From an uncultured Candidatus Saccharibacteria bacterium (GTDB lineage Bacteria > Patescibacteriota > Minisyncoccia > UBA6257), in assembly GCA_964479005.1 (NCBI GenBank), contig CAYZJA010000001.1, positions 160,001 through 224,000 on the forward strand: a stretch of DNA of 64,000 bases, written 5' to 3'. Within the stretch, counting starts at the first letter, position 1; each line of letters opens with the position of its first letter. Below the pieces are notes generated by a model. The model saw only the letters and a program-made list of their open reading frames with translations, had not been told where the DNA came from and searched no databases. Below, piece after piece: positions 25,316 through 62,114 of the stretch. The position numbers and the translations under genes are program-made.

Positions 25316-25686
25316 AACTTTCTTTTAAAAAATTTCTCAAAAGCATATATCATGCCTCTCAAGGAATAAAATATGTATTTTTGCAACAGAATTTCTTTTT
25401 AATGTTTCTTATAACGATTGGAACATTAATTCTCGGATTTTGGCTGCAAATTTCTTATTTTGAATGGCTGATAATAATCTTTCTTATTGGTTTTATTCTT
25501 AGTTTAGAAATATTAAACACTGTCCTTGAAAGAACATTAGATTTTTTAGAGCCATATATTTCTGATAAAATTAGAATGATAAAAGACTTAATCGCAGGAG
25601 CGGTTTTTTTAGCTTGTTTGACAGCGCTTATTTTAGGATTTATAATCTTTTTTCCCAAAATACTTATAATAATTTTAAATAACTAA
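25312..25686 (+). CDS. dgkA: diacylglycerol/undecaprenol kinase (DgkA family)
   Basis: A 124-aa three-TM protein with 'EILNTVLERTLD' (E..N..E motif of prokaryotic DAGK). Confidence 0.7.
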   Translation: MKLSFKKFLKSIYHASQGIKYVFLQQNFFLMFLITIGTLILGFWLQISYFEWLIIIFLIGFILSLEILNTVLERTLDFLEPYISDKIRMIKDLIAGAVFLACLTALILGFIIFFPKILIIILNN

Positions 25687-38938: not shown

Positions 38939-40138
38939 ATGACAAAACGCAAATGGACTAAAGAAGATGACGAATATCTTATCCAACATAGTCCGAAACA
39001 ACGGGGAGATTATGGGAAGTTGGCTATCAAACTTGATAGAACAGTAGAAGCAGTGAGGTATAGGTGTAGAAATCTAAAATTGGAAAATGTCCAAAAGAAT
39101 AGTCAGGCACAGAGAACAGATGTTCCATTAGAAGATAGGATTTACGAATTGCTTTCACATTCCAAAAAACATTCTATTGAGGAGCTAAGTAATACATTTG
39201 ATATTTGTGTAGGAAAGGTTAAAGAAGCATTAGGTGTATTACAGAGCAGACGGATTTTAATAGACGCAATAGATGACAAAATTGTTTTAGGGAATACGAT
39301 TAAACCACCAAAAGCCACTCCAATTCCGATGAAGATTTATCATAATAGGTGGATTAAGTTTGGAGTAATCAGTGATACTCATTTGAACTCCAAATATCAA
39401 AGATTGGATATTTTAAACCACGCTTATAAAATCTTTCAGAAAGAAGGAGTGAAGAATGTTCTACACGCTGGGAATATTATAGATGGTTATGGTAGATTAA
39501 ATCAGTTTGATGTATTTAACATCGGGACAGAAGACCAAATCAACTATTGTATTGAAACCTATCCTTGTAAGCAAGGGATTACTACTCACTTCATTACTGC
39601 TGATGATCACGAGGGATGGATTGTAAGGAGAGAACACATTAACATCGGAGAATTACTTGAACTCAAAGCTAACAAAATGGGTAGAAAAGATTTGAAACAT
39701 TTAGGATATATTGAAAGTGATGTGTTAGTTAAAGTTGGAAGCAAACCTACAAGAATTAGAGTATTCCATCCTGGCGGAGGCACAGCATATTCTCTTTCTT
39801 ATAAACCTCAGAAGATTGTTGAGTCCTTACAGGGTGGAGAAAAACCTGATATATTATTAGTCGGACATTTTCATAAACTCGGACATTTTGAATGGCGGAA
39901 TGTGGAAGTGTTATTGACTGGTTGTATAGAAGACCAAACTCCATTTATGAGAAAGAAACATATTGCTGCTCATCTTGGTTTCTATATTGTGAAAGCCCAT
40001 ATTGCTCCTGACGGTTCTGTCAATAGATTCATTCCAGAAAAGATTAGCTATTACGATAGGAAATATTATACCAGCAGAGCTTGGAAGAAAACTCCTACCA
40101 GTTTTGAAAAACCTATTGAATGGTTTTACAAGTGGTAA
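38939..40138 (+). CDS. Myb/SANT-like HTH + winged-helix fused to calcineurin-like metallophosphoesterase (phage-type)
   Basis: N-terminal 'KWTKEDDEYLIQH...GDYGKLAIKLDRTVEAVRYRC'. Phosphoesterase motifs 'GVISDTHL', 'HAGNIIDG', 'LLVGHFHK'. Consensus SD 'AAGGAGGTG' upstream. Confidence 0.6.
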   Translation: MTKRKWTKEDDEYLIQHSPKQRGDYGKLAIKLDRTVEAVRYRCRNLKLENVQKNSQAQRTDVPLEDRIYELLSHSKKHSIEELSNTFDICVGKVKEALGVLQSRRILIDAIDDKIVLGNTIKPPKATPIPMKIYHNRWIKFGVISDTHLNSKYQRLDILNHAYKIFQKEGVKNVLHAGNIIDGYGRLNQFDVFNIGTEDQINYCIETYPCKQGITTHFITADDHEGWIVRREHINIGELLELKANKMGRKDLKHLGYIESDVLVKVGSKPTRIRVFHPGGGTAYSLSYKPQKIVESLQGGEKPDILLVGHFHKLGHFEWRNVEVLLTGCIEDQTPFMRKKHIAAHLGFYIVKAHIAPDGSVNRFIPEKISYYDRKYYTSRAWKKTPTSFEKPIEWFYKW

Positions 40139-41077: not shown

Positions 41078-41224
41078 ATGGAAATTCAGAATGTTTACTG
41101 TTTGATTAAGATTACTTGTGTTGTGATTATTGTAGTAGGATTTTTCGCAATTGTTCAATTACATCTTAAAAGAGAAAAGCAAAGGATACGGGATTATTAT
41201 AAAAGAGGAGGTGATAAGCGATGA
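41078..41224 (+). CDS. small membrane protein (48 aa), holin-like size
   Basis: Manual ORF 'MEIQNVYCLIKITCVVIIVVGFFAIVQLHLKREKQRIRDYYKRGGDKR' with one TM and a charged C-terminus. ATGA overlap with the next gene. Confidence 0.35.
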   Translation: MEIQNVYCLIKITCVVIIVVGFFAIVQLHLKREKQRIRDYYKRGGDKR

Positions 41225-42303
41225 AAAAACTACTCGTAGTATTGATTTGTTTGTTTCTATTAGTTCCAACTGTAATTTCTGCACCAGTTGAAAGATTAAG
41301 TGTAGGAGATTTTACTCGTGCAGTAACGGCTCAGATAGTCTGTAATGTTGATGTGTATAGACGGGATTTAACCTGGTATAAGATTGAGGATGGTCAGGTG
41401 ATCCCTGAATTCAAAGATTTAGATGAAGATGACTGGGCATATCAATGGTTAAAGAAAGGCTGGTTCGTGGTATATGGCGAATGGAATACAGAACCTCGCA
41501 AAGGTAAGATAATGGGTTCTGGTGAAGTATTATATTCCTGGTTATTACCTATGGGGATTAACTTAGAAGGTAAACCTGCTGCAACTTATGTAGGCACAAA
41601 TGCCCATGTGGTAGATGTATTTATGTTAGAAGCCAGTAGGGGTTCAAGAGATAAACCATTAGACCTATATGCCGAGAAGGACACGATGAAGACAATGAAT
41701 ATGCTTAGAACGACTTATAAAGAAGAGGCTAAACCAATAGCCCAGTATTACTTTGATATAGATAACAGTTATATCACTGTAAAGACCGAAGCAGACCAAA
41801 GATTTAGAACTAAAGTTAACATCGTATTGTTTGACATAGCATTAGATTTTGCCTTATTGGAAATGGAAAATGTTTTAGGTCTGCCTTATGTGAGTTTTAG
41901 AGGCACTCCTATACAGGTTGGCGAAACGATTAAAATCTGTGGAGCACCATTAGGATTTGCTTTTAGTAGAGACGAAGGACGAGTAAGTCAAGTTCACTTA
42001 AATCTCGGAACTGATGGAGTGGAAGATTATATTGTATGGGATAACCAAGTGCGTATGGATATTGCTGCTGCACCAGGAAGTTCGGGTAGTGCGATATTTG
42101 ATAAAGATGGCTATATGATTGCCCAATTACACGGAATAATGGTTCACAACGGCAACTATATTCAAGGCGGACAATTAGCAGTAGACCAAGAAGATATAAT
42201 TCGTTTTCTGGTGTTAAATGGTTTTTCGTGGATAGTTCAAAATCCTTATGGAATTTGGGCTAACGCACCATATAATACAGTCCGACCAAAAGTAGGAGAA
42301 TAG
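41221..42303 (+). CDS. secreted trypsin-like (S1/Trypsin_2) serine protease
   Basis: Signal peptide 'MKKLLVVLICLFLLVPTVISAP'. Catalytic His 'GTNAHVV', Asp 'DFALLEME' and Ser 'APGSSGSAIFD'. SD 'GAGGAGGTG'. Confidence 0.6.
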   Translation: MKKLLVVLICLFLLVPTVISAPVERLSVGDFTRAVTAQIVCNVDVYRRDLTWYKIEDGQVIPEFKDLDEDDWAYQWLKKGWFVVYGEWNTEPRKGKIMGSGEVLYSWLLPMGINLEGKPAATYVGTNAHVVDVFMLEASRGSRDKPLDLYAEKDTMKTMNMLRTTYKEEAKPIAQYYFDIDNSYITVKTEADQRFRTKVNIVLFDIALDFALLEMENVLGLPYVSFRGTPIQVGETIKICGAPLGFAFSRDEGRVSQVHLNLGTDGVEDYIVWDNQVRMDIAAAPGSSGSAIFDKDGYMIAQLHGIMVHNGNYIQGGQLAVDQEDIIRFLVLNGFSWIVQNPYGIWANAPYNTVRPKVGE

Positions 42304-54739: not shown

Positions 54740-54934
54740 ATGGATAATATAGATCAACTAATTGCGCAGGCTTCACAAATTTTTACTAAAGTTCTTTATG
54801 AGATAACTCATCTCACAGATCAGGTTTTTATATCTGGAATATTAGGACATTTATGGGCGTTTTTAAAAACAATAATCCAATTTATTATTCTAGCATTAGA
54901 AGCATTAGTTAGAATTTTAAAGTTTTTCGTTTAA
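54740..54934 (+). CDS. small hypothetical hydrophobic protein (64 aa)
   Basis: ORF only. It may be non-coding. Confidence 0.2.
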   Translation: MDNIDQLIAQASQIFTKVLYEITHLTDQVFISGILGHLWAFLKTIIQFIILALEALVRILKFFV

Positions 54935-54993: not shown

Positions 54994-55021
54994 TTGACAA
55001 GTCATCTAAGATGGCTATAAT
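54994..55021 (+). promoter_or_regulatory. sigma-70 promoter TTGACA-16-TATAAT
   Basis: Consensus hexamers upstream of the dif-like site and the xer gene. Confidence 0.5.
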
Positions 55022-55034
55022 TAAAGTATAATAA

Positions 55035-55062
55035 GGTTCGCATAATTATAGTTAAGCGAACA
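55035..55062. other. dif-like Xer recombination site (28 bp): GGTTCGCATAA-TTATAG-TTAAGCGAACA
   Basis: The left arm matches the E. coli dif XerC arm GGTGCGCATAA at 10 of 11 positions. There is a 6-bp spacer, and the right arm is a near-perfect inverted copy (9/11). It lies 48 nt upstream of the recombinase gene. Confidence 0.5.
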
Positions 55063-55109: not shown

Positions 55110-56066
55110 ATGAAAAAGAACCAAAAACCAATCCCCTGTCATTTATCTGATTTTTTAGATTGGTTAGATATTGAAAAAGGTTTATCTTCTAAATCCCAGG
55201 AAAATTATAATAGATTTTTAAAAAAATTTTTAGATTGGTTAAAATCAAATAATTTAGAGGGTTTAAAGCCTCATGAATTAACTACTGATCATGTTTGGAA
55301 ATATCGGGTTTTCCTCTCGCGCCGATATCTTCCTAAAACGAAAACACCCCTTAAAAAAACAACTCAAAATTATTATTTAATAGCTTTAAGGTCCTTTTTG
55401 AATTATTTTGCTGATAGAGATATTTTGTCTTTACCATCTGAAAAGATAAAATTAGCTAAAGATAGAGATGAAAAACAAGTTAGTTTTTTAAATTTAGAGC
55501 AATTAGAGAAATTATTTTCAGCTCCTGACACTTCTAAAAAGCAAGAATTGCGGGACAGAGCTATTTTAGAGGTTTTATTCTCTACTGGTATGAGGATAGC
55601 AGAATTAGTTTCATTAAACCGGGATCAAATTAAAATAAATCCTGGAATAAAAGAATTAGAAGTTGGGATTATTGGCAAAGGGAAAAAACTACGAACTGTT
55701 TATTTCTCTGAAAGAGCTCTATCTTGGTTATCTAAATACTTTAAAACCCGAAATGATGATGAAAAAGCGTTATTTATCAATTATAGAAGCAGGAAAGGAG
55801 CGCCACGGAGATTAACTCCACGTTCAATTGAAAAAAATATGAAAAAATATGTGATTATGTCAGGGGTTCCAATAACAACTACTCCTCACGCCATGCGCCA
55901 TACTTTTTCGACAGATCTTTTAAATCAAGGCGTGGATTTAAAAATACTCCAGGAATTTCTTGGCCACAAAAGCATTGCCGCTACACAAATTTACGCGCAT
56001 GTTACGAGTAAAAAACTTCGTGAGGTACATCGGAAATTTCACAGTGGCCGTAAATTAAAAACATAA
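55110..56066 (+). CDS. tyrosine site-specific recombinase (XerC/XerD-like)
   Basis: C-terminal catalytic 'HAMRHTFSTDLLNQGVDLKILQEFLGHKSIAATQIYAHV' (R..H..R..Y) and an N-terminal SAM-like core-binding domain. Confidence 0.8.
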   Translation: MKKNQKPIPCHLSDFLDWLDIEKGLSSKSQENYNRFLKKFLDWLKSNNLEGLKPHELTTDHVWKYRVFLSRRYLPKTKTPLKKTTQNYYLIALRSFLNYFADRDILSLPSEKIKLAKDRDEKQVSFLNLEQLEKLFSAPDTSKKQELRDRAILEVLFSTGMRIAELVSLNRDQIKINPGIKELEVGIIGKGKKLRTVYFSERALSWLSKYFKTRNDDEKALFINYRSRKGAPRRLTPRSIEKNMKKYVIMSGVPITTTPHAMRHTFSTDLLNQGVDLKILQEFLGHKSIAATQIYAHVTSKKLREVHRKFHSGRKLKT

Positions 56067-56129
56067 GTAAAATAAATAAAATAAGGTAGAGGTTTGTTCC
56101 CCTACCTTATAAATTCAGCTTCTATGTTT

Positions 56130-56336
56130 CTACATTTTATTTTCAATCAATCTTAGAATTCTTTTCCATTTCTCAAAATTCTTATTAATAACTTTTGAAA
56201 TTTTTTTCCAATCTTCAGGGGATGGCTCACGTATGCCCTTTTTTGGTTCCCCTAAAAAGATTTCCCCTGTTTTTGTATCACAAACAATATCATCTCCATT
56301 TTCTAATTTACCTATTTCTTCCCAATTAGCCATCAT
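56130..56336 (-). CDS. small hypothetical protein (68 aa)
   Basis: SD 'GAGGTG'. Overlaps the upstream gene by ATGA. Confidence 0.4.
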   Translation of the reverse strand: MMANWEEIGKLENGDDIVCDTKTGEIFLGEPKKGIREPSPEDWKKISKVINKNFEKWKRILRLIENKM

Positions 56337-56649
56337 TTTTCACCTCTTCGATAATTTTATCAATCTTTAATCTATCATTAGGTACAAGATCTTTCATTTT
56401 GAGACCGAAAACCTCATTAATTACGCGAGTAAGGATGTTTTCTAGATTTTCATTTACTTTTTCCTCTAATTCTTTTATTTGTCTCAGTAGGCCGTCAATC
56501 TCGATGTCTTTATGGATGTTTTTAGCTTCCAGCTCAGACCATAGATTCTCAAAATAAGATTTAATGGCTATGTCTAGCAGGTCTTTTTGGGTATCTGATA
56601 GATAGTTACAATTCCAAATAAAATCAATAAGTTTTTCCCTGAGAGTCAT
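56326..56649 (-). CDS. hypothetical protein (107 aa), coiled-coil rich
   Basis: SD 'AAGGAGGAG' and a predicted helical fold. Confidence 0.4.
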   Translation of the reverse strand: MTLREKLIDFIWNCNYLSDTQKDLLDIAIKSYFENLWSELEAKNIHKDIEIDGLLRQIKELEEKVNENLENILTRVINEVFGLKMKDLVPNDRLKIDKIIEEVKNDG

Positions 56650-56701
56650 TTATTCACTCCTCCTTTTTTTATTTATTTCAGATTTTTGAATCTCAATCTA
56701 T

Positions 56702-56899
56702 CTAATAAATTTGTGTCTTTTCTTTATGTATACCATCAAGAATTGCTTTTATTCGCGGTTCTGATTTTTTATTGATGTACTTCCCTTGGTCTTTTATTTC
56801 TTTTTTGCTCATTTTCTTACCTTTTCCTCTTGTCCGCGGTCTTTTTAGAATATCAGCCGGACTAGAGCACAATGTTATTTGCTCTGATATTTTTGCCAT
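56702..56899 (-). CDS. small basic protein (65 aa), possible DNA-binding regulator
   Basis: SD 'GAAGGAGGGG'. The sequence is Lys/Arg-rich ('KRPRTRGKGKKMSKKEIK'). Confidence 0.4.
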   Translation of the reverse strand: MAKISEQITLCSSPADILKRPRTRGKGKKMSKKEIKDQGKYINKKSEPRIKAILDGIHKEKTQIY

Positions 56900-56961
56900 T
56901 ACAATCCCCTCCTTCTATATATTTTTTATATTTTTATTATTATTCAGTTTTCAATCTGCAA

Positions 56962-56979
56962 GCTACACAGTCATGTAGC
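56962..56979. promoter_or_regulatory. palindromic operator-like site GCTACA-cagtca-TGTAGC
   Basis: A perfect 6-bp inverted repeat overlapping the predicted transcription start of the minus-strand promoter. Confidence 0.35.
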
Positions 56980-56982
56980 CTT

Positions 56983-57012
56983 ATTATATCAATAATCATT
57001 AGACCTGTCAAC
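56983..57012 (-). promoter_or_regulatory. sigma-70 promoter (minus strand) TTGACA-18-TATAAT
   Basis: The reverse complement of 57007-57012 is TTGACA and of 56983-56988 is TATAAT. It drives the three small minus-strand genes. Confidence 0.45.
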
Positions 57013-57121
57013 CCAGCACTACCTATACATAGGTGCGTGGGGTATATGAAATTGAATAAATAAATGCTAATATAACTAACATTGCCCATTATTATTTGTT
57101 AATTGTTATTTGTTAATTTTT

Positions 57122-58303
57122 ATGAGAATAAGTTATTCCAGTTTAGAGAATTTTAAACAGTGTCCTCTAAAATATAAGTTTTCTAATATAGATAAAATAA
57201 AAGAGCCTAAAAGCAAAGAGGCTATTTTTGGCACTTATATTCATAAAGTTCTGAAATGGTTTTATCAAAAAGATCCACACTTCCCTACTCTTGATGCTTT
57301 ATTAAAGTATTATCGTGATTATTGGCCTAGAAAAACAGAAGGATTTGAATGGAAAGATCCTGAAGAAGAAAAATCTTATTTCAAAGAGGGGTTAAGAATA
57401 TTAGAAGAATTTTATAAGAAAAATATTCCACATAAAACATCTATTTTGGATTTAGAAACAAGGTTTGAAGTTGTTATTGATGAAAATCCTAATAAACCAA
57501 ATGGCAAGCATATTTTAACAGGCGTAATAGATAGAATAGATAAATTACCAGATGATACAATTGAAATAATTGATTATAAAACAGGAAAAAGAATGCCTTC
57601 TCAAAAAGCTTTAGATAAAAATGATCAACTTTCTCTTTACGCTATTGGATTAAAAAGCCGTTGGCCAAGAACTAAAATTGAAGATTTACGCCTAAGCTTA
57701 TATTTTCTTAAGTTCAATGAAAGAATAAATACCAAAAGAACAGAAAAAGACTTGGAAGAAGCAAAAGATAAAATAATAAATTTAATTCATCGAATAGAAA
57801 AAAGCGATTTTGAACCTCATTCTTCAGCATTATGTGGTTGGTGCGGTTATCGTAATATTTGTCCAATTTGGCGGCATTTTTATGAAGACGAGGAAAGCAA
57901 TCATTTAAATGATATAGATATTAAAGAAAAAATAGATAAATACTTTGTTTTAAAAAAAGAAAAAGAAAAATTAGAACAAGAATTATTAGAATTAAAGAAT
58001 TTAATTGATGTTTATTGTCATCAAAAAGGATTAAAGCGCGTATTTGGTGAAAATGGTTATTTTAGCCATACTGTTTATAACAAAGTTTCTTATGATATTC
58101 CTAAATTAAAAGAAATTTTAGAGCCATTGGAAAAATGGGAAGATATTATTGAAATTAATGCTAAAAAATTAAAAAAGGTTTTAAAAGAGATACCTGCTGA
58201 TTTGAGGGAAAAAATAAAAGAAACAGAAAAAATAGAAGAAAAATTTAAATACTTATCCACCAACCATATAAGCAAAAAAGAAATCAAAGAGCAACTGCCT
58301 TAG
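57122..58303 (+). CDS. PD-(D/E)XK nuclease of the Cas4/RecB-AddB nuclease-domain type with C-terminal Cys cluster
   Basis: 'IDRIDKL..IEIIDYKTGK' (D..EhhDYK core), 'DQLSLYAI' (QhxxY), and a C-terminal 'CGWCGYRNICPIW' Fe-S-type cysteine cluster plus an N-terminal 'CPLKY' Cys. Confidence 0.6.
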   Translation: MRISYSSLENFKQCPLKYKFSNIDKIKEPKSKEAIFGTYIHKVLKWFYQKDPHFPTLDALLKYYRDYWPRKTEGFEWKDPEEEKSYFKEGLRILEEFYKKNIPHKTSILDLETRFEVVIDENPNKPNGKHILTGVIDRIDKLPDDTIEIIDYKTGKRMPSQKALDKNDQLSLYAIGLKSRWPRTKIEDLRLSLYFLKFNERINTKRTEKDLEEAKDKIINLIHRIEKSDFEPHSSALCGWCGYRNICPIWRHFYEDEESNHLNDIDIKEKIDKYFVLKKEKEKLEQELLELKNLIDVYCHQKGLKRVFGENGYFSHTVYNKVSYDIPKLKEILEPLEKWEDIIEINAKKLKKVLKEIPADLREKIKETEKIEEKFKYLSTNHISKKEIKEQLP

Positions 58304-58668
58304 TTGCATCTAGTATTATAAATATATCCCCTATTTTCAGCTTCTTGTTGGGTTTTAAAATAGATTCGATTTTCTTCTTTTAATGAATTAGACAAACTAC
58401 AATCTACTGGATAATAATATTTTCCTCTGGAACTGGCTACAAATGAAAATTCTTTAGCTGTTATTGTAGTTTTATCTATTATAGGTTCATCAATGCTTGT
58501 TATTAATTCTTTTTCTATAATGATCGGTGGACGGGAGATAATATCAGCTCCAATAATAATACCAAGGGAAAAAGATAAAGTTATACTTAAAAATCCAAGG
58601 CTGAACAGCCAAAAATTCTTTTTGACAAATAGAACAAATTTTGTTAGAATTTTCAAACAGTGGGGCAT
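58300..58668 (-). CDS. membrane-anchored hypothetical protein (122 aa)
   Basis: N-terminal TM 'FWLFSLGFLSITLSFSLGIIIGA'. Confidence 0.45.
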   Translation of the reverse strand: MPHCLKILTKFVLFVKKNFWLFSLGFLSITLSFSLGIIIGADIISRPPIIIEKELITSIDEPIIDKTTITAKEFSFVASSRGKYYYPVDCSLSNSLKEENRIYFKTQQEAENRGYIYNTRCN

Positions 58669-62073: not shown

Positions 62074-62114
62074 TTAGTAATTATATAGTTTAAACACTGT
62101 TTTTGTCAATTTTA

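What the first reader, a model, noticed from the sequence alone, without database searches (positions are those of the whole stretch)
56130..57014. Three small SD-equipped minus-strand genes driven by a consensus promoter with a palindromic operator, divergent from a Cas4-like nuclease
The genes (65, 107 and 68 aa; the last two overlap by ATGA) all have GGAGG-type SDs, unlike the core genes. Upstream on the minus strand sit TTGACA-18-TATAAT and a perfect palindrome GCTACA-N6-TGTAGC over the predicted start, the classic layout of an autorepressed module. The first product is small and very basic, so it may be the repressor. Combined with the adjacent xer/dif and the nuclease, this looks like a compact mobile or defence cassette (toxin-antitoxin or a novel system).
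Basis: partly seen in the sequence, partly recalled or inferred. Interest (0 to 1): 0.5.

Follow-up and report, generated by a model that had tools for sequence, protein, structure and literature searches.

The report
Swappable small-gene island beside xerC
The three small genes are real. They are one variant of a fast-changing, horizontally exchanged set of tiny unknown genes that sits at the chromosome terminus of a reduced-genome (CPR) bacterium, and nothing supports the proposed self-repressed toxin-antitoxin or defence module.

Summary
Three minus-strand ORFs (65, 107 and 67/68 aa) with strong Shine-Dalgarno sites follow a perfect TTGACA-17-TGaTATAAT promoter. A perfect GCTACA-N6-TGTAGC palindrome starts 3 nt after the -10 box, and a strong terminator closes the unit. 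The spacer is 17 nt, not 18. The last two genes overlap by 8 or 11 nt, not by ATGA.

The organism is a Patescibacteria (Ca. Paceibacterota) bacterium. In about 27 related loci the flanking nuclease and xerC genes are kept, but the 0.5-2.7 kb between them holds different mixes of small lineage-restricted genes. All are driven by copies of one conserved promoter, leader and ribosome-binding module. The closest reference genome has none of the three genes.

The genes are under purifying selection (dN/dS about 0.2 for B and C). Their synonymous divergence is higher than that of the flanks, which points to exchange. The island lies at the GC-skew turning point, about 1 kb from a dif site in the xerC leader.

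The palindrome is an optional 14-nt element and travels with no particular gene. No TA, repressor, defence or phage homology was found by sequence or fold.

Best reading: a moron-like accessory operon in a recombination-shuffled terminus hotspot. The biochemical role is unknown.

The parts
56983..57011 (-). Sigma-70 consensus promoter: TTGACA, 17-nt spacer, TATAAT, with an extended -10 (TGa). It is part of a conserved promoter and leader module that is reused in front of different cassettes.
   Evidence: One search gives a 12/12 match. Searches show the same module, including spacer sequence, in 25 copies across related loci. All copies are in direct orientation.
56962..56979 (.). Perfect palindrome GCTACA-TGACTG-TGTAGC, starting 3 nt downstream of the -10 box. 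It is an optional 14-nt element of the module. It could be an operator for an unidentified factor or a 5'-terminal RNA hairpin.
   Evidence: locate it. It is present in the window, L016a, L062, L118, L095 and L010, degenerate in L016b, and cleanly absent in L007, L017, L096, L131, L108, L040 and others. As RNA it folds at -8.9 kcal/mol, but only if transcription starts 3-4 nt after the -10 box.
56900..56961 (-). Conserved A/U-rich, unstructured 5' leader (TTGCAgaTTGAAAACTGAATAA...) ending in the SD AAGGAGGGG (56906-56914).
   Evidence: Alignment A1. The leader is unique in the window. No structure was predicted beyond the palindrome and there was no Rfam match.
56702..56899 (-). Gene A: 65 aa, basic (pI 10.1), with an N-terminal Q-x-x-L-[C/Y/F] motif. 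It is the most widespread island family (13 members) and evolves very fast.
   Evidence: dN/dS is 0.17-0.59. No family hits were found.
56326..56649 (-). Gene B: 107 aa, acidic (pI 4.75), all-helical. It has a conserved N-terminal 30 residues (EKLIDFIWNxxYLSDTQKDLLE) followed by a variable, predicted-helical C-terminal part. Its SD is AAGGAGG (56659-56665).
   Evidence: Only 6 clusters exist among 1.84 billion representative proteins. dN/dS is 0.19.
56130..56336 (-). Gene C: 67/68 aa, overlapping the end of B by 8 or 11 nt, with SD GAGGTGA (56340-56346). When present it is always the last gene before the terminator next to xerC.
   Evidence: The AF2 model has pLDDT 88, with four beta strands and one long helix. 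No significant fold match was found. dN/dS is 0.19-0.23.
56081..56110 (-). Intrinsic terminator: 12-bp stem, 6-nt loop, then a T-run. It lies between gene C and the 3' end of the convergent xerC. A near-identical hairpin also ends internal cassettes in other loci.
   Evidence: Folding energy is -16.9 kcal/mol, z = -5.9. Recurrence in other loci is shown.
57012..57041 (.). Imperfect hairpin abutting the -35 box, in the divergent region towards the nuclease. It occurs only in the window, L016 and L062.
   Evidence: -13 kcal/mol, z = -1.8, not significant.
57122..58303 (+). Left core flank of the island: a PD-(D/E)XK (Cas4/AddB-like) nuclease with a DUF7376 C-terminal domain. The CxxCx5C cysteine cluster typical of Cas4/AddB was seen by reading the sequence.
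   Evidence: It is conserved at 62-93% aa identity in all related loci.
55110..56066 (+). Right core flank of the island: a XerC/D-type tyrosine recombinase, convergent with the small-gene operon.
   Evidence: It is 56-95% aa identical in related loci.
55035..55061 (+). dif-like site GGTTCGCATAA-TTATAG-TTAAGCGAAC(A), between the xerC promoter and the xerC start codon. There is one copy per locus.
   Evidence: The GC skew and gene orientation switch at about 55-59 kb.

Best explanation
The three genes form one strongly promoted accessory operon: promoter, leader, A, B, C, terminator. It occupies a hypervariable gene-cassette hotspot that a clade of Ca. Paceibacterota (CPR) keeps between a core Cas4-like nuclease and xerC, at the replication terminus.

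Shown:
- The flanking genes are syntenic and well conserved, while the cargo between them differs from genome to genome.
- The cargo is drawn from a small pool of lineage-restricted families of small proteins.
- Each cassette or group of cassettes carries a copy of the same promoter, leader and ribosome-binding module, often with the same terminator. These modules are always in direct orientation.
- Cargo alleles show more synonymous divergence than the flanks. Some cargo is far more similar between distant genomes than their core genes are.
- B and C are under purifying selection.

Inferred:
- Cassettes are gained, lost and swapped by homologous recombination. The conserved modules and the core flanks serve as the homology, for example after DNA uptake. 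No dedicated site-specific system is needed.
- Expression is strong and largely constitutive. The consensus promoter and the strong SDs stand out in a genome whose core genes lack SDs.
- The palindrome is an optional add-on, either an operator for a factor encoded elsewhere or a 5' hairpin. It is not an autoregulatory site for protein A.
- The products are too small for most enzymes and none matches a known catalytic domain, so they are probably soluble binding proteins rather than enzymes: basic A, acidic helical B, and C with a small beta sheet plus a helix. High turnover, horizontal exchange and fast evolution make a role in conflict with phages or other mobile elements, or in interaction with the host cell, the most likely one. 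A may bind DNA and/or the beta sliding clamp through its invariant N-terminal QxxL motif.
For: Synteny with variable cargo across about 27 loci. The closest reference genome, L143 (flanks 90-94% aa identical), carries only a DUF218 gene in the island.

Shared promoter, leader and RBS module: with 25 copies all in direct orientation. The terminator recurs in other loci.

Exchange: island dS is 0.75-3.1 against 0.39-0.48 for the flanks in the same genome pairs. Cargo family F3 is 81% aa identical between L016 and L118, whereas the nuclease (compared between L007, a close relative of L016, and L118) is 62% identical. The promoter module is 87% nt identical between the window and L118.

Real genes: dN/dS is about 0.19-0.23 for B and C. 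SDs are conserved. The AF2 model of C is confident.

SD contrast with core genes: with context from PMC9297842.

Terminus position.

No TA, defence or phage homology.

QxxL motif: it is invariant in family A and present in most of family E. The clamp-binding consensus QLxLF, with Q and L as key residues, is from PMC4549789.
Against: No function was demonstrated for any product, so the conflict or host-interaction role rests only on turnover pattern and context. No recombination intermediates or population-level variants were seen, and contigs from six samples are identical. Homologous exchange between genomes whose flanks are only about 60-65% identical would be inefficient, so a site-specific or vector-borne route is not excluded. 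The clamp-binding idea rests on a 5-residue motif, and the same codons belong to a DNA module shared between families A and E. The motif could therefore be conserved for reasons that act at the nucleotide level. Strong expression is inferred from sequence signals only.
Confidence: 0.6

Rival explanations
1. Autoregulated toxin-antitoxin-like addiction module. The basic A protein (or C) binds the palindrome and represses the promoter, and one product is toxic and neutralised by another.
For: The layout fits: small overlapping genes, a strong promoter with a perfect palindrome at the transcription start, and a basic/acidic pair, A (pI 10.1) and B (pI 4.75). B is found only where an A-family gene is present. 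An AbrB/MazE-fold gene sits in one related island, L017.
Against: None of the three proteins matches any TA, RHH, Xre or toxin family by HMM or by fold. A occurs without B or C in 8 islands, and C occurs without B. The palindrome is missing from most module copies, including those in front of A-family genes in L007, L017b and L040. It is present in front of unrelated genes such as F3 and DUF218. The closest relative lacks all three genes, with no scar.
Confidence: 0.1
2. Novel anti-phage defence cargo, or counter-defence or superinfection-exclusion cargo, in a core-flanked defence hotspot.
For: The locus is a hypervariable, horizontally exchanged, fast-evolving island between conserved core genes, next to a Cas4-like nuclease. 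These are the typical properties of defence hotspots.
Against: None of about 14 island proteins tested matched a PADLOC model above noise. The products are very small (50-110 aa) and have no enzymatic domains. No relatives exist in IMG/VR or INPHARED. The nuclease is a conserved core gene in every genome, not part of the variable cargo.
Confidence: 0.2
3. Xer-dependent mobile cassettes, in the manner of IMEX elements, pdif modules or integrons. The adjacent tyrosine recombinase would capture or excise cassettes at hairpin or palindromic sites such as the 6-6-6 palindrome or the 12-6-12 terminator hairpin.
For: The island abuts xerC in every locus, and dif is about 1 kb away. Both the palindrome and the terminator have the arm-6 bp-arm geometry of tyrosine-recombinase core sites. 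Cassettes are separated by repeated conserved units in direct orientation.
Against: Each locus has only one dif, upstream of xerC and outside the island. Islands contain no dif-like full or half sites above chance: 32 observed against 26 in shuffles. The palindrome has no sequence similarity to dif and is absent from most cassette junctions. The terminators next to xerC come in at least four unrelated sequence types. Homology breakpoints fall at SD and start-codon regions, not at hairpins. XerC is a 93-95% conserved housekeeping-type gene and is convergent with the array, not divergent as an integron integrase would be.
Confidence: 0.06
4. Decaying remnant of an integrated phage or plasmid early region, with no present function.
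For: The island carries small ORFan genes and foreign-looking translation signals (strong SDs in an SD-poor genome). It has a moron-like promoter, gene and terminator layout, and gene presence is patchy.
Against: B and C are under purifying selection. Reading frames are intact, with SDs, in every locus. The regulatory modules are conserved across distant genomes. No phage or plasmid hallmark genes occur in any of the islands, and there are no matches in viral or phage collections.
Confidence: 0.08

Closest known systems
Phage 'morons' and moron-like accessory cassettes (an autonomous promoter, gene and terminator unit inserted between conserved genes)
   Same: The unit is self-contained, with its own strong promoter and intrinsic terminator. 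It sits between conserved syntenic genes and is present in some relatives and absent in others. Its expression signals differ from those of its neighbours, since it uses SDs and they do not. Exchange is mosaic, with breakpoints in short conserved intergenic sequences.
   Different: It is not inside a prophage. No phage genes lie nearby and there are no homologs in phage collections. The same regulatory module is reused for many different cargos within one chromosomal hotspot.
Core-flanked hypervariable hotspots and genomic islets of bacterial pan-genomes, including defence hotspots and terminus-proximal accessory regions
   Same: The flanks are conserved, the cargo varies, the cargo is transferred horizontally, and the location is near the replication terminus.
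   Different: The cargo consists almost entirely of 50-110 aa ORFan proteins and includes no recognisable defence system. The island is tiny (0.5-2.7 kb). It is found in a roughly 0.55-Mb streamlined CPR genome.
Type II toxin-antitoxin operons
   Same: The genes are small, overlapping and co-transcribed. A palindrome lies at the promoter. The products include a basic and an acidic protein.
   Different: There is no homology or fold similarity to any TA family. The unit has three genes whose membership varies freely. The palindrome is not co-inherited with the genes.
Xer-linked cassette systems: IMEX elements at dif, Acinetobacter pdif modules and integron cassette arrays
   Same: The locus has small cassettes of unknown function next to a tyrosine recombinase and dif, with repeated conserved units between cassettes.
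   Different: No dif-like or attC-like sites bound the cassettes. Each cassette brings its own promoter. The recombinase is the conserved chromosomal Xer and is convergent with the array.
Mycoplasma Xer1/vpma-type phase-variable multigene loci (PMC2268961)
   Same: A Xer-like recombinase gene lies next to a set of genes that share a highly conserved 5' region (promoter or leader plus the N-terminal codons), in a reduced genome.
   Different: All modules here are in direct orientation, and each has its own promoter, so no invertible switch is possible. The products are not lipoproteins. The variation seen is between genomes, not within a clone.

Membership tests
Type II toxin-antitoxin module | At least one product belongs to a known toxin or antitoxin fold or family (RHH, Xre-HTH, AbrB, PIN, RelE, MazF and others) | tested here: not met
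Type II toxin-antitoxin module | The cognate gene pair is strictly co-inherited | tested here: not met
   A occurs without B or C in 8 islands. C occurs without B (L016, L147). L007 has A and B but no C.
Type II toxin-antitoxin module | Autoregulation through an operator that is bound by the antitoxin and conserved together with the genes | tested here: not met
   The palindrome is present in 6-7 of about 25 promoter copies and is not correlated with any gene family. Binding itself cannot be tested with these tools.
Type II toxin-antitoxin module | Toxicity of one product, neutralised by the other | not testable with these tools
   This needs expression experiments.
Known anti-phage defence system (PADLOC catalogue) | Match to a model of a described defence protein | tested here: not met
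   Searches gave only weak partial matches (E of 3e-4 or worse, consistent with chance similarity of helical, charged stretches) for A-C, and none for 9 other island proteins.
IMEX / pdif module (Xer-exploiting element) | The element is bounded by dif or dif-like XerC/D binding sites | tested here: not met
   Each locus has a single dif, upstream of xerC. Half-site matches in the islands are at the level of shuffled sequence.
Integron | An IntI-type integrase lies divergent from an attI site and a Pc promoter, followed by promoterless cassettes that each end in an attC | tested here: not met
   The recombinase scores as XerC/D, below the integron-integrase cut-offs, and is convergent with the array. 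The cassettes carry their own promoters. No conserved attC-like element is found at the junctions.
Invertible phase-variation locus (vpma/Xer1 type) | Inverted copies of the conserved 5' recombination region allow the promoter or gene to be inverted | tested here: not met
   There are 25 modules on the gene strand and none on the opposite strand.
Moron-like accessory cassette in a hypervariable hotspot | An own promoter and terminator bracket the cargo | tested here: met
   The modules recur in other loci.
Moron-like accessory cassette in a hypervariable hotspot | Presence or absence differs between close relatives while the flanks stay conserved | tested here: met
   L143 and L007 lack some or all of the three genes, although their flanks are 90-95% aa identical.
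Moron-like accessory cassette in a hypervariable hotspot | The evolutionary history of the cargo is discordant with that of the flanks (horizontal exchange) | tested here: met
   Cargo dS exceeds flank dS. F3 cargo is 81% identical against about 62% for the nuclease in comparable genome pairs.
Beta-clamp-binding proteins (QLxLF motif) | An exposed QLxLF or QLxLxL peptide that binds the clamp's hydrophobic cleft | tested here: inconclusive
   Q and L are invariant in family A (QxxL[YCF]), and QxxLF is present in 8 of 11 aligned family E sequences. The consensus comes from PMC4549789. Binding was not tested, and the motif coincides with a DNA module shared by the two families.

The most novel reading that the evidence does not exclude
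The nuclease-xerC interval could be a dedicated gene-cassette exchange platform of Paceibacterota. In this reading, a conserved promoter, leader, RBS and N-terminal-codon module, with its optional 9-6-9 palindrome, doubles as the recombination site, possibly for the adjacent Xer-type recombinase. The platform would deliver families of mini-proteins (A and E) that dock on the beta sliding clamp through an N-terminal QLxLF-type peptide. These genes would be translated by an SD-dependent route that the core genome does not use.
Probability: 0.07. Interest if true: 0.8.

Novelty: new variant of a known kind. Interest (0 to 1): 0.42.

Why it matters
CPR/Patescibacteria genomes are extremely reduced, and their accessory gene content is poorly understood. 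This locus shows that a clade of them keeps a fixed chromosomal slot at the terminus, next to xerC/dif, in which tiny ORFan genes are exchanged horizontally. All of these genes use one conserved strong promoter, leader and SD module, while the core genes lack SDs.

This gives a concrete, comparable set of about 10 small-protein families for asking what these organisms fight over or negotiate with their hosts. It also offers a natural test of whether SD-led translation works in a Parcubacteria lineage that mostly lacks SDs.

For the scan itself, the result corrects a plausible-looking call of 'autorepressed TA or defence module'.

Tried and rejected
1. Family searches (Pfam, NCBIfam, PHROGs, PADLOC) for A, B, C and about 20 other island proteins found only DUF218, AbrB/MazE and zinc ribbons in other loci.

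2. Word-indexed homolog searches found only 2-3 clusters per protein. A full HMM scan of 1.84 billion representative proteins with the B profile found 6 clusters.

4. PDB profile searches found nothing significant.

5. Viral and phage collections gave no relatives. Two alignments were too divergent to scan.

6. The metagenome scan with a promoter pattern was too generic. Most of its 120 hits were unrelated, but about 11 useful related loci were recovered.

7. dif-flanked element idea: rejected.

8. Invertible switch idea: rejected.

9. Structured RNA leader or known RNA family: none found.

10. A shared AGGTAG core between the -35-proximal hairpin and the terminator hairpin was considered and dismissed as compatible with chance.

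11. The canonical E. coli/B. subtilis dif consensus found nothing. The real dif emerged from the alignment of the xerC leaders.
Full report
OBSERVATION

Three minus-strand ORFs are present: A (56702-56899, 65 aa), B (56326-56649, 107 aa) and C (56130-56336, 68 aa, or 67 aa from the second ATG). Independent gene calls on identical public contigs give the same genes.

Each ORF has a strong Shine-Dalgarno sequence: AAGGAGGGG for A, AAGGAGG for B and GAGGTGA for C. A scan of 48 other genes in the window found an SD-like match in only about four. The contrast with the core genes is therefore real and large.

The promoter is TTGACA, a 17-nt spacer, then TGaTATAAT, at 57011-56983. It matches the consensus 12/12 and has an extended -10. 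The spacer is 17 nt, not 18. Perfect promoters are not special to this locus. The window has four, against 0.11 expected, and the other three head dnaG, xerC and the murC operon.

The palindrome GCTACA-N6-TGTAGC (56962-56979) is perfect and unique in the window, but a single such site is not statistically remarkable. B and C overlap by 11 or 8 nt (ATGATGGCTAA), not by ATGA.

A 12-bp-stem intrinsic terminator at 56081-56110 (-16.9 kcal/mol, z = -5.9) ends the unit. It faces the 3' end of the convergent xerC. A is basic (pI 10.1), B is acidic (pI 4.75) and C is near neutral.

ORGANISM AND CHROMOSOMAL POSITION

The window comes from a 551,616-bp metagenomic contig. Its relatives in GTDB are MAGs labelled Candidatus Paceibacterota, Parcubacteria or Patescibacteria (some records say Saccharibacteria).

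For 55 kb almost all genes lie on the + strand and GC skew is strongly positive. Both properties change at about 55-59 kb, and cumulative skew peaks there. This is the signature of a replication terminus, although local skew also follows gene orientation.

Aligning the xerC leaders of related loci revealed a conserved site, GGTTCGCATAA-TTATAG-TTAAGCGAAC(A), at 55035-55061, between the xerC promoter and its start codon. By my reading, its left arm matches the E. coli XerC arm (GGTGCGCATAA, recalled from memory) in 10 of 11 positions, and the two arms are near-palindromic. Genetic linkage of dif to its xer gene is known for the single-recombinase XerS/difSL system (PMC2731167, PMC5357621). The three genes therefore sit about 1 kb from dif, on the other side of xerC.

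COMPARATIVE ANATOMY

Homologs of the three proteins are extremely rare. There are 2-3 clusters each among 5.8 billion proteins. The B profile finds only 6 clusters among 1.84 billion representative proteins.

Contig look-ups, a promoter-pattern scan and a nuclease-based genome scan together gave about 27 related loci. Wherever the contig reaches both flanks, the PD-(D/E)XK nuclease and xerC bracket the same interval. Compared with the window, the nuclease is 62-93% aa identical and XerC is 56-95% aa identical. The interval itself is 0.5-2.7 kb long and holds different gene sets:

- Window: A, B, C.
- L007: a truncated A, and B.
- L016: F3 (244 aa), E, A, C.
- L017: DUF218, an AbrB-like gene, A, B, D, C.
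- L118: F3, E, B, A and a membrane protein.
- L131, L108 and L148-L153: E-family genes plus other small genes.
- L159: A plus two zinc-ribbon proteins.
- L143: a DUF218 gene only. This is the closest species representative, with flanks 90-94% identical to the window.

Clustering gives about 10 recurrent small-protein families. The largest are E (16 members), A (13), B (6), F3 (5) and C (4). The three genes in the window are thus one combination drawn from a shared pool. They are neither core genes nor a fixed module.

SHARED REGULATORY MODULES

The promoter is conserved including its spacer sequence. So are the A/U-rich leader (TTGCA..TTGAAAACTGAATAA..), the ribosome-binding region (AAGGAGGGGATTGTA-ATG) and, for families A and E, the first seven or so codons (MEKQL+L[F/Y]). 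This holds between loci and between two copies within one island (L016, L017, L096).

All 25 promoter copies are in direct orientation. The terminator hairpin also recurs, nearly unchanged, at internal cassette ends in other loci. Homology between the window and L007 breaks at the start codon of A, at the SD of B, at the stop codon of B and at the stop codon of xerC. The breakpoints therefore fall at gene boundaries.

EVIDENCE FOR EXCHANGE AND FOR FUNCTION

In the same genome pairs, the flanking genes have dS of 0.39-0.48 and dN/dS of 0.05-0.11. B and C have dS of 0.75-1.2 and dN/dS of 0.19-0.23. A has dS of at least 1.1 and dN/dS of 0.17-0.59. Two conclusions follow. The cargo genes are real and selected. 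Their alleles are also older than the divergence of the genomes that carry them.

Cargo family F3 is 81% aa identical between L016 and L118. The nuclease, compared between L007 (a close relative of L016) and L118, is about 62% identical. The promoter module is 87% nt identical between the window and L118. Both results indicate horizontal spread of cassettes across the clade.

THE PALINDROME

The palindrome is a 14-nt presence/absence element inside the module. It is intact in the window, L016a, L062, L118, L095 and L010. It is degenerate in L016b. It is cleanly missing in L007, L017 (both copies), L096 (both copies), L131, L108, L040, L135 and the others.

Where present, it precedes unrelated first genes: A, F3, E, DUF218 and an A-D fusion. 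It is absent from islands that do carry full-length A (L017, L096, L040). Three of the five C-containing islands have it, while L017 and L147 do not. No island gene co-varies with it, and this argues against autorepression by A.

As RNA it would form a hairpin of -8.9 kcal/mol, but only if transcription started 3-4 nt after the -10 box. The rest of the leader is unstructured and matches no Rfam family.

THE PROTEINS

None of the three proteins matches a Pfam, NCBIfam, PHROGs or PADLOC family above noise. Profiles of families A, B, C and E find nothing in PDB sequences.

B is helical at low confidence (pLDDT 68) and returns only generic helical hits. Its family keeps a conserved N-terminal 30 residues and a variable helical tail.

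Family A has an invariant Q-x-x-L followed by Y, C or F near the N terminus, then a basic segment. Family E mostly starts with QLxLF. This resembles the beta-clamp-binding consensus QLxLF, in which Q and L are critical (PMC4549789). It remains only a lead, because the same codons belong to the DNA module shared by A and E.

Other island cargo also lacks defence or phage annotations. No relatives occur in IMG/VR or INPHARED.

RIVALS

A toxin-antitoxin module fails on homology, on co-inheritance and on operator conservation. A Xer-dependent element (IMEX, pdif or integron-like) fails for several reasons. There is one dif per locus, and it lies outside the island. Islands hold no dif-like sites above chance. 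The terminators next to xerC come in at least four unrelated sequence types. The cassettes also carry their own promoters. An invertible vpma/Xer1-type switch (PMC2268961) is excluded by the uniform orientation of the modules. A dead phage remnant is unlikely given purifying selection and intact signals. A novel defence or counter-defence role cannot be excluded and fits the evolutionary pattern, but nothing specific supports it.

CONCLUSION

The finding is a real, well-formed operon. Its context shows a moron-like accessory cassette in a hypervariable, horizontally exchanged islet at the chromosome terminus of a CPR bacterium. It is not an autorepressed TA or defence module.

Two further points came out of the work. 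First, a single promoter, leader and SD module is reused for many unrelated mini-genes. Second, these genes use SDs in a genome whose core genes do not. The anti-SD motif was detected in only 48% of Parcubacteria (PMC9297842).

The biochemical function of A, B and C remains unknown. The most probable role is as small binding proteins in conflict with mobile elements or in host interaction.

Noticed in passing
window 55035-55061: A dif-like site, GGTTCGCATAA-TTATAG-TTAAGCGAAC(A), lies between the perfect xerC promoter (54994-55021) and the xerC start codon. It is conserved in all related loci. The near-palindromic arms suggest a single-recombinase Xer system with dif embedded in the xer leader, which could allow autoregulation.
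   Followed up: partly
window, whole (1-64000); SD-led exceptions at 38939-40138 and 41221-42303: Core genes, including ribosomal protein genes, have essentially no Shine-Dalgarno sequence. Apart from the three island genes, the only strong SDs precede a metallophosphoesterase and a trypsin-like peptidase. Both lie in a stretch of higher GC (0.34-0.35) that may be a second acquired region.
   Followed up: partly
window 25618-25646, 54994-55021, 62080-62109: Three further perfect TTGACA-N16-18-TATAAT promoters lie in front of dnaG, xerC and the murC operon. With the island promoter this makes four in 64 kb against 0.11 expected, so operon heads in this genome appear to use near-consensus promoters.
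   Followed up: no
L016:1731-2042, L096, L118, L131, L108, L147-L158 (family E); family A in the window at 56702-56899: Two otherwise unrelated small-protein families share the RBS plus the first seven or so codons (MEKQL[KR]L[FY]). This gives both an N-terminal QLxLF-like peptide that resembles the beta-clamp-binding motif.
   Followed up: partly
L108, L149, L150, L153, L158, L131 islands: Another island family (F6, and related short ORFs) ends in a conserved C-terminal ...G(G)YNE tail whose meaning is unknown.
   Followed up: no
L016:853-1587 compared with L118 and L107: The 244-253 aa cargo protein F3 is 81% identical between genomes whose core nuclease is about 62% identical and whose XerC is about 67% identical. 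This is a clear case of recent horizontal transfer within the clade. Its only family match is a weak KH-like one (PF21800, E = 2e-5, below the cut-off).
   Followed up: partly
window 57012-57041: An imperfect hairpin (CCCACGCACCTAT-GTA-TAGGTAGTGCTGGG) abuts the -35 box in the divergent nuclease/island region. It is found only in the window, L016 and L062, which are three of the six loci that have the palindrome.
   Followed up: partly
window 58300-58668 and 54740-54934: Two conserved small core genes flank the locus. One is a 122-aa membrane-anchored protein with a weak Ada-type zinc-binding match at its C terminus. The other is a 64-aa hydrophobic protein upstream of xerC. Both are syntenic in all relatives and neither is annotated.
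   Followed up: no
L144 (DAOVIY010000017.1), island region next to the nuclease: One relative has at least 2.7 kb of different cargo (transmembrane or secreted small proteins) after the nuclease and no xerC within reach. Each gene is preceded by a leader-like TTGAAAA motif. The island may be larger here, or the locus rearranged.
   Followed up: no
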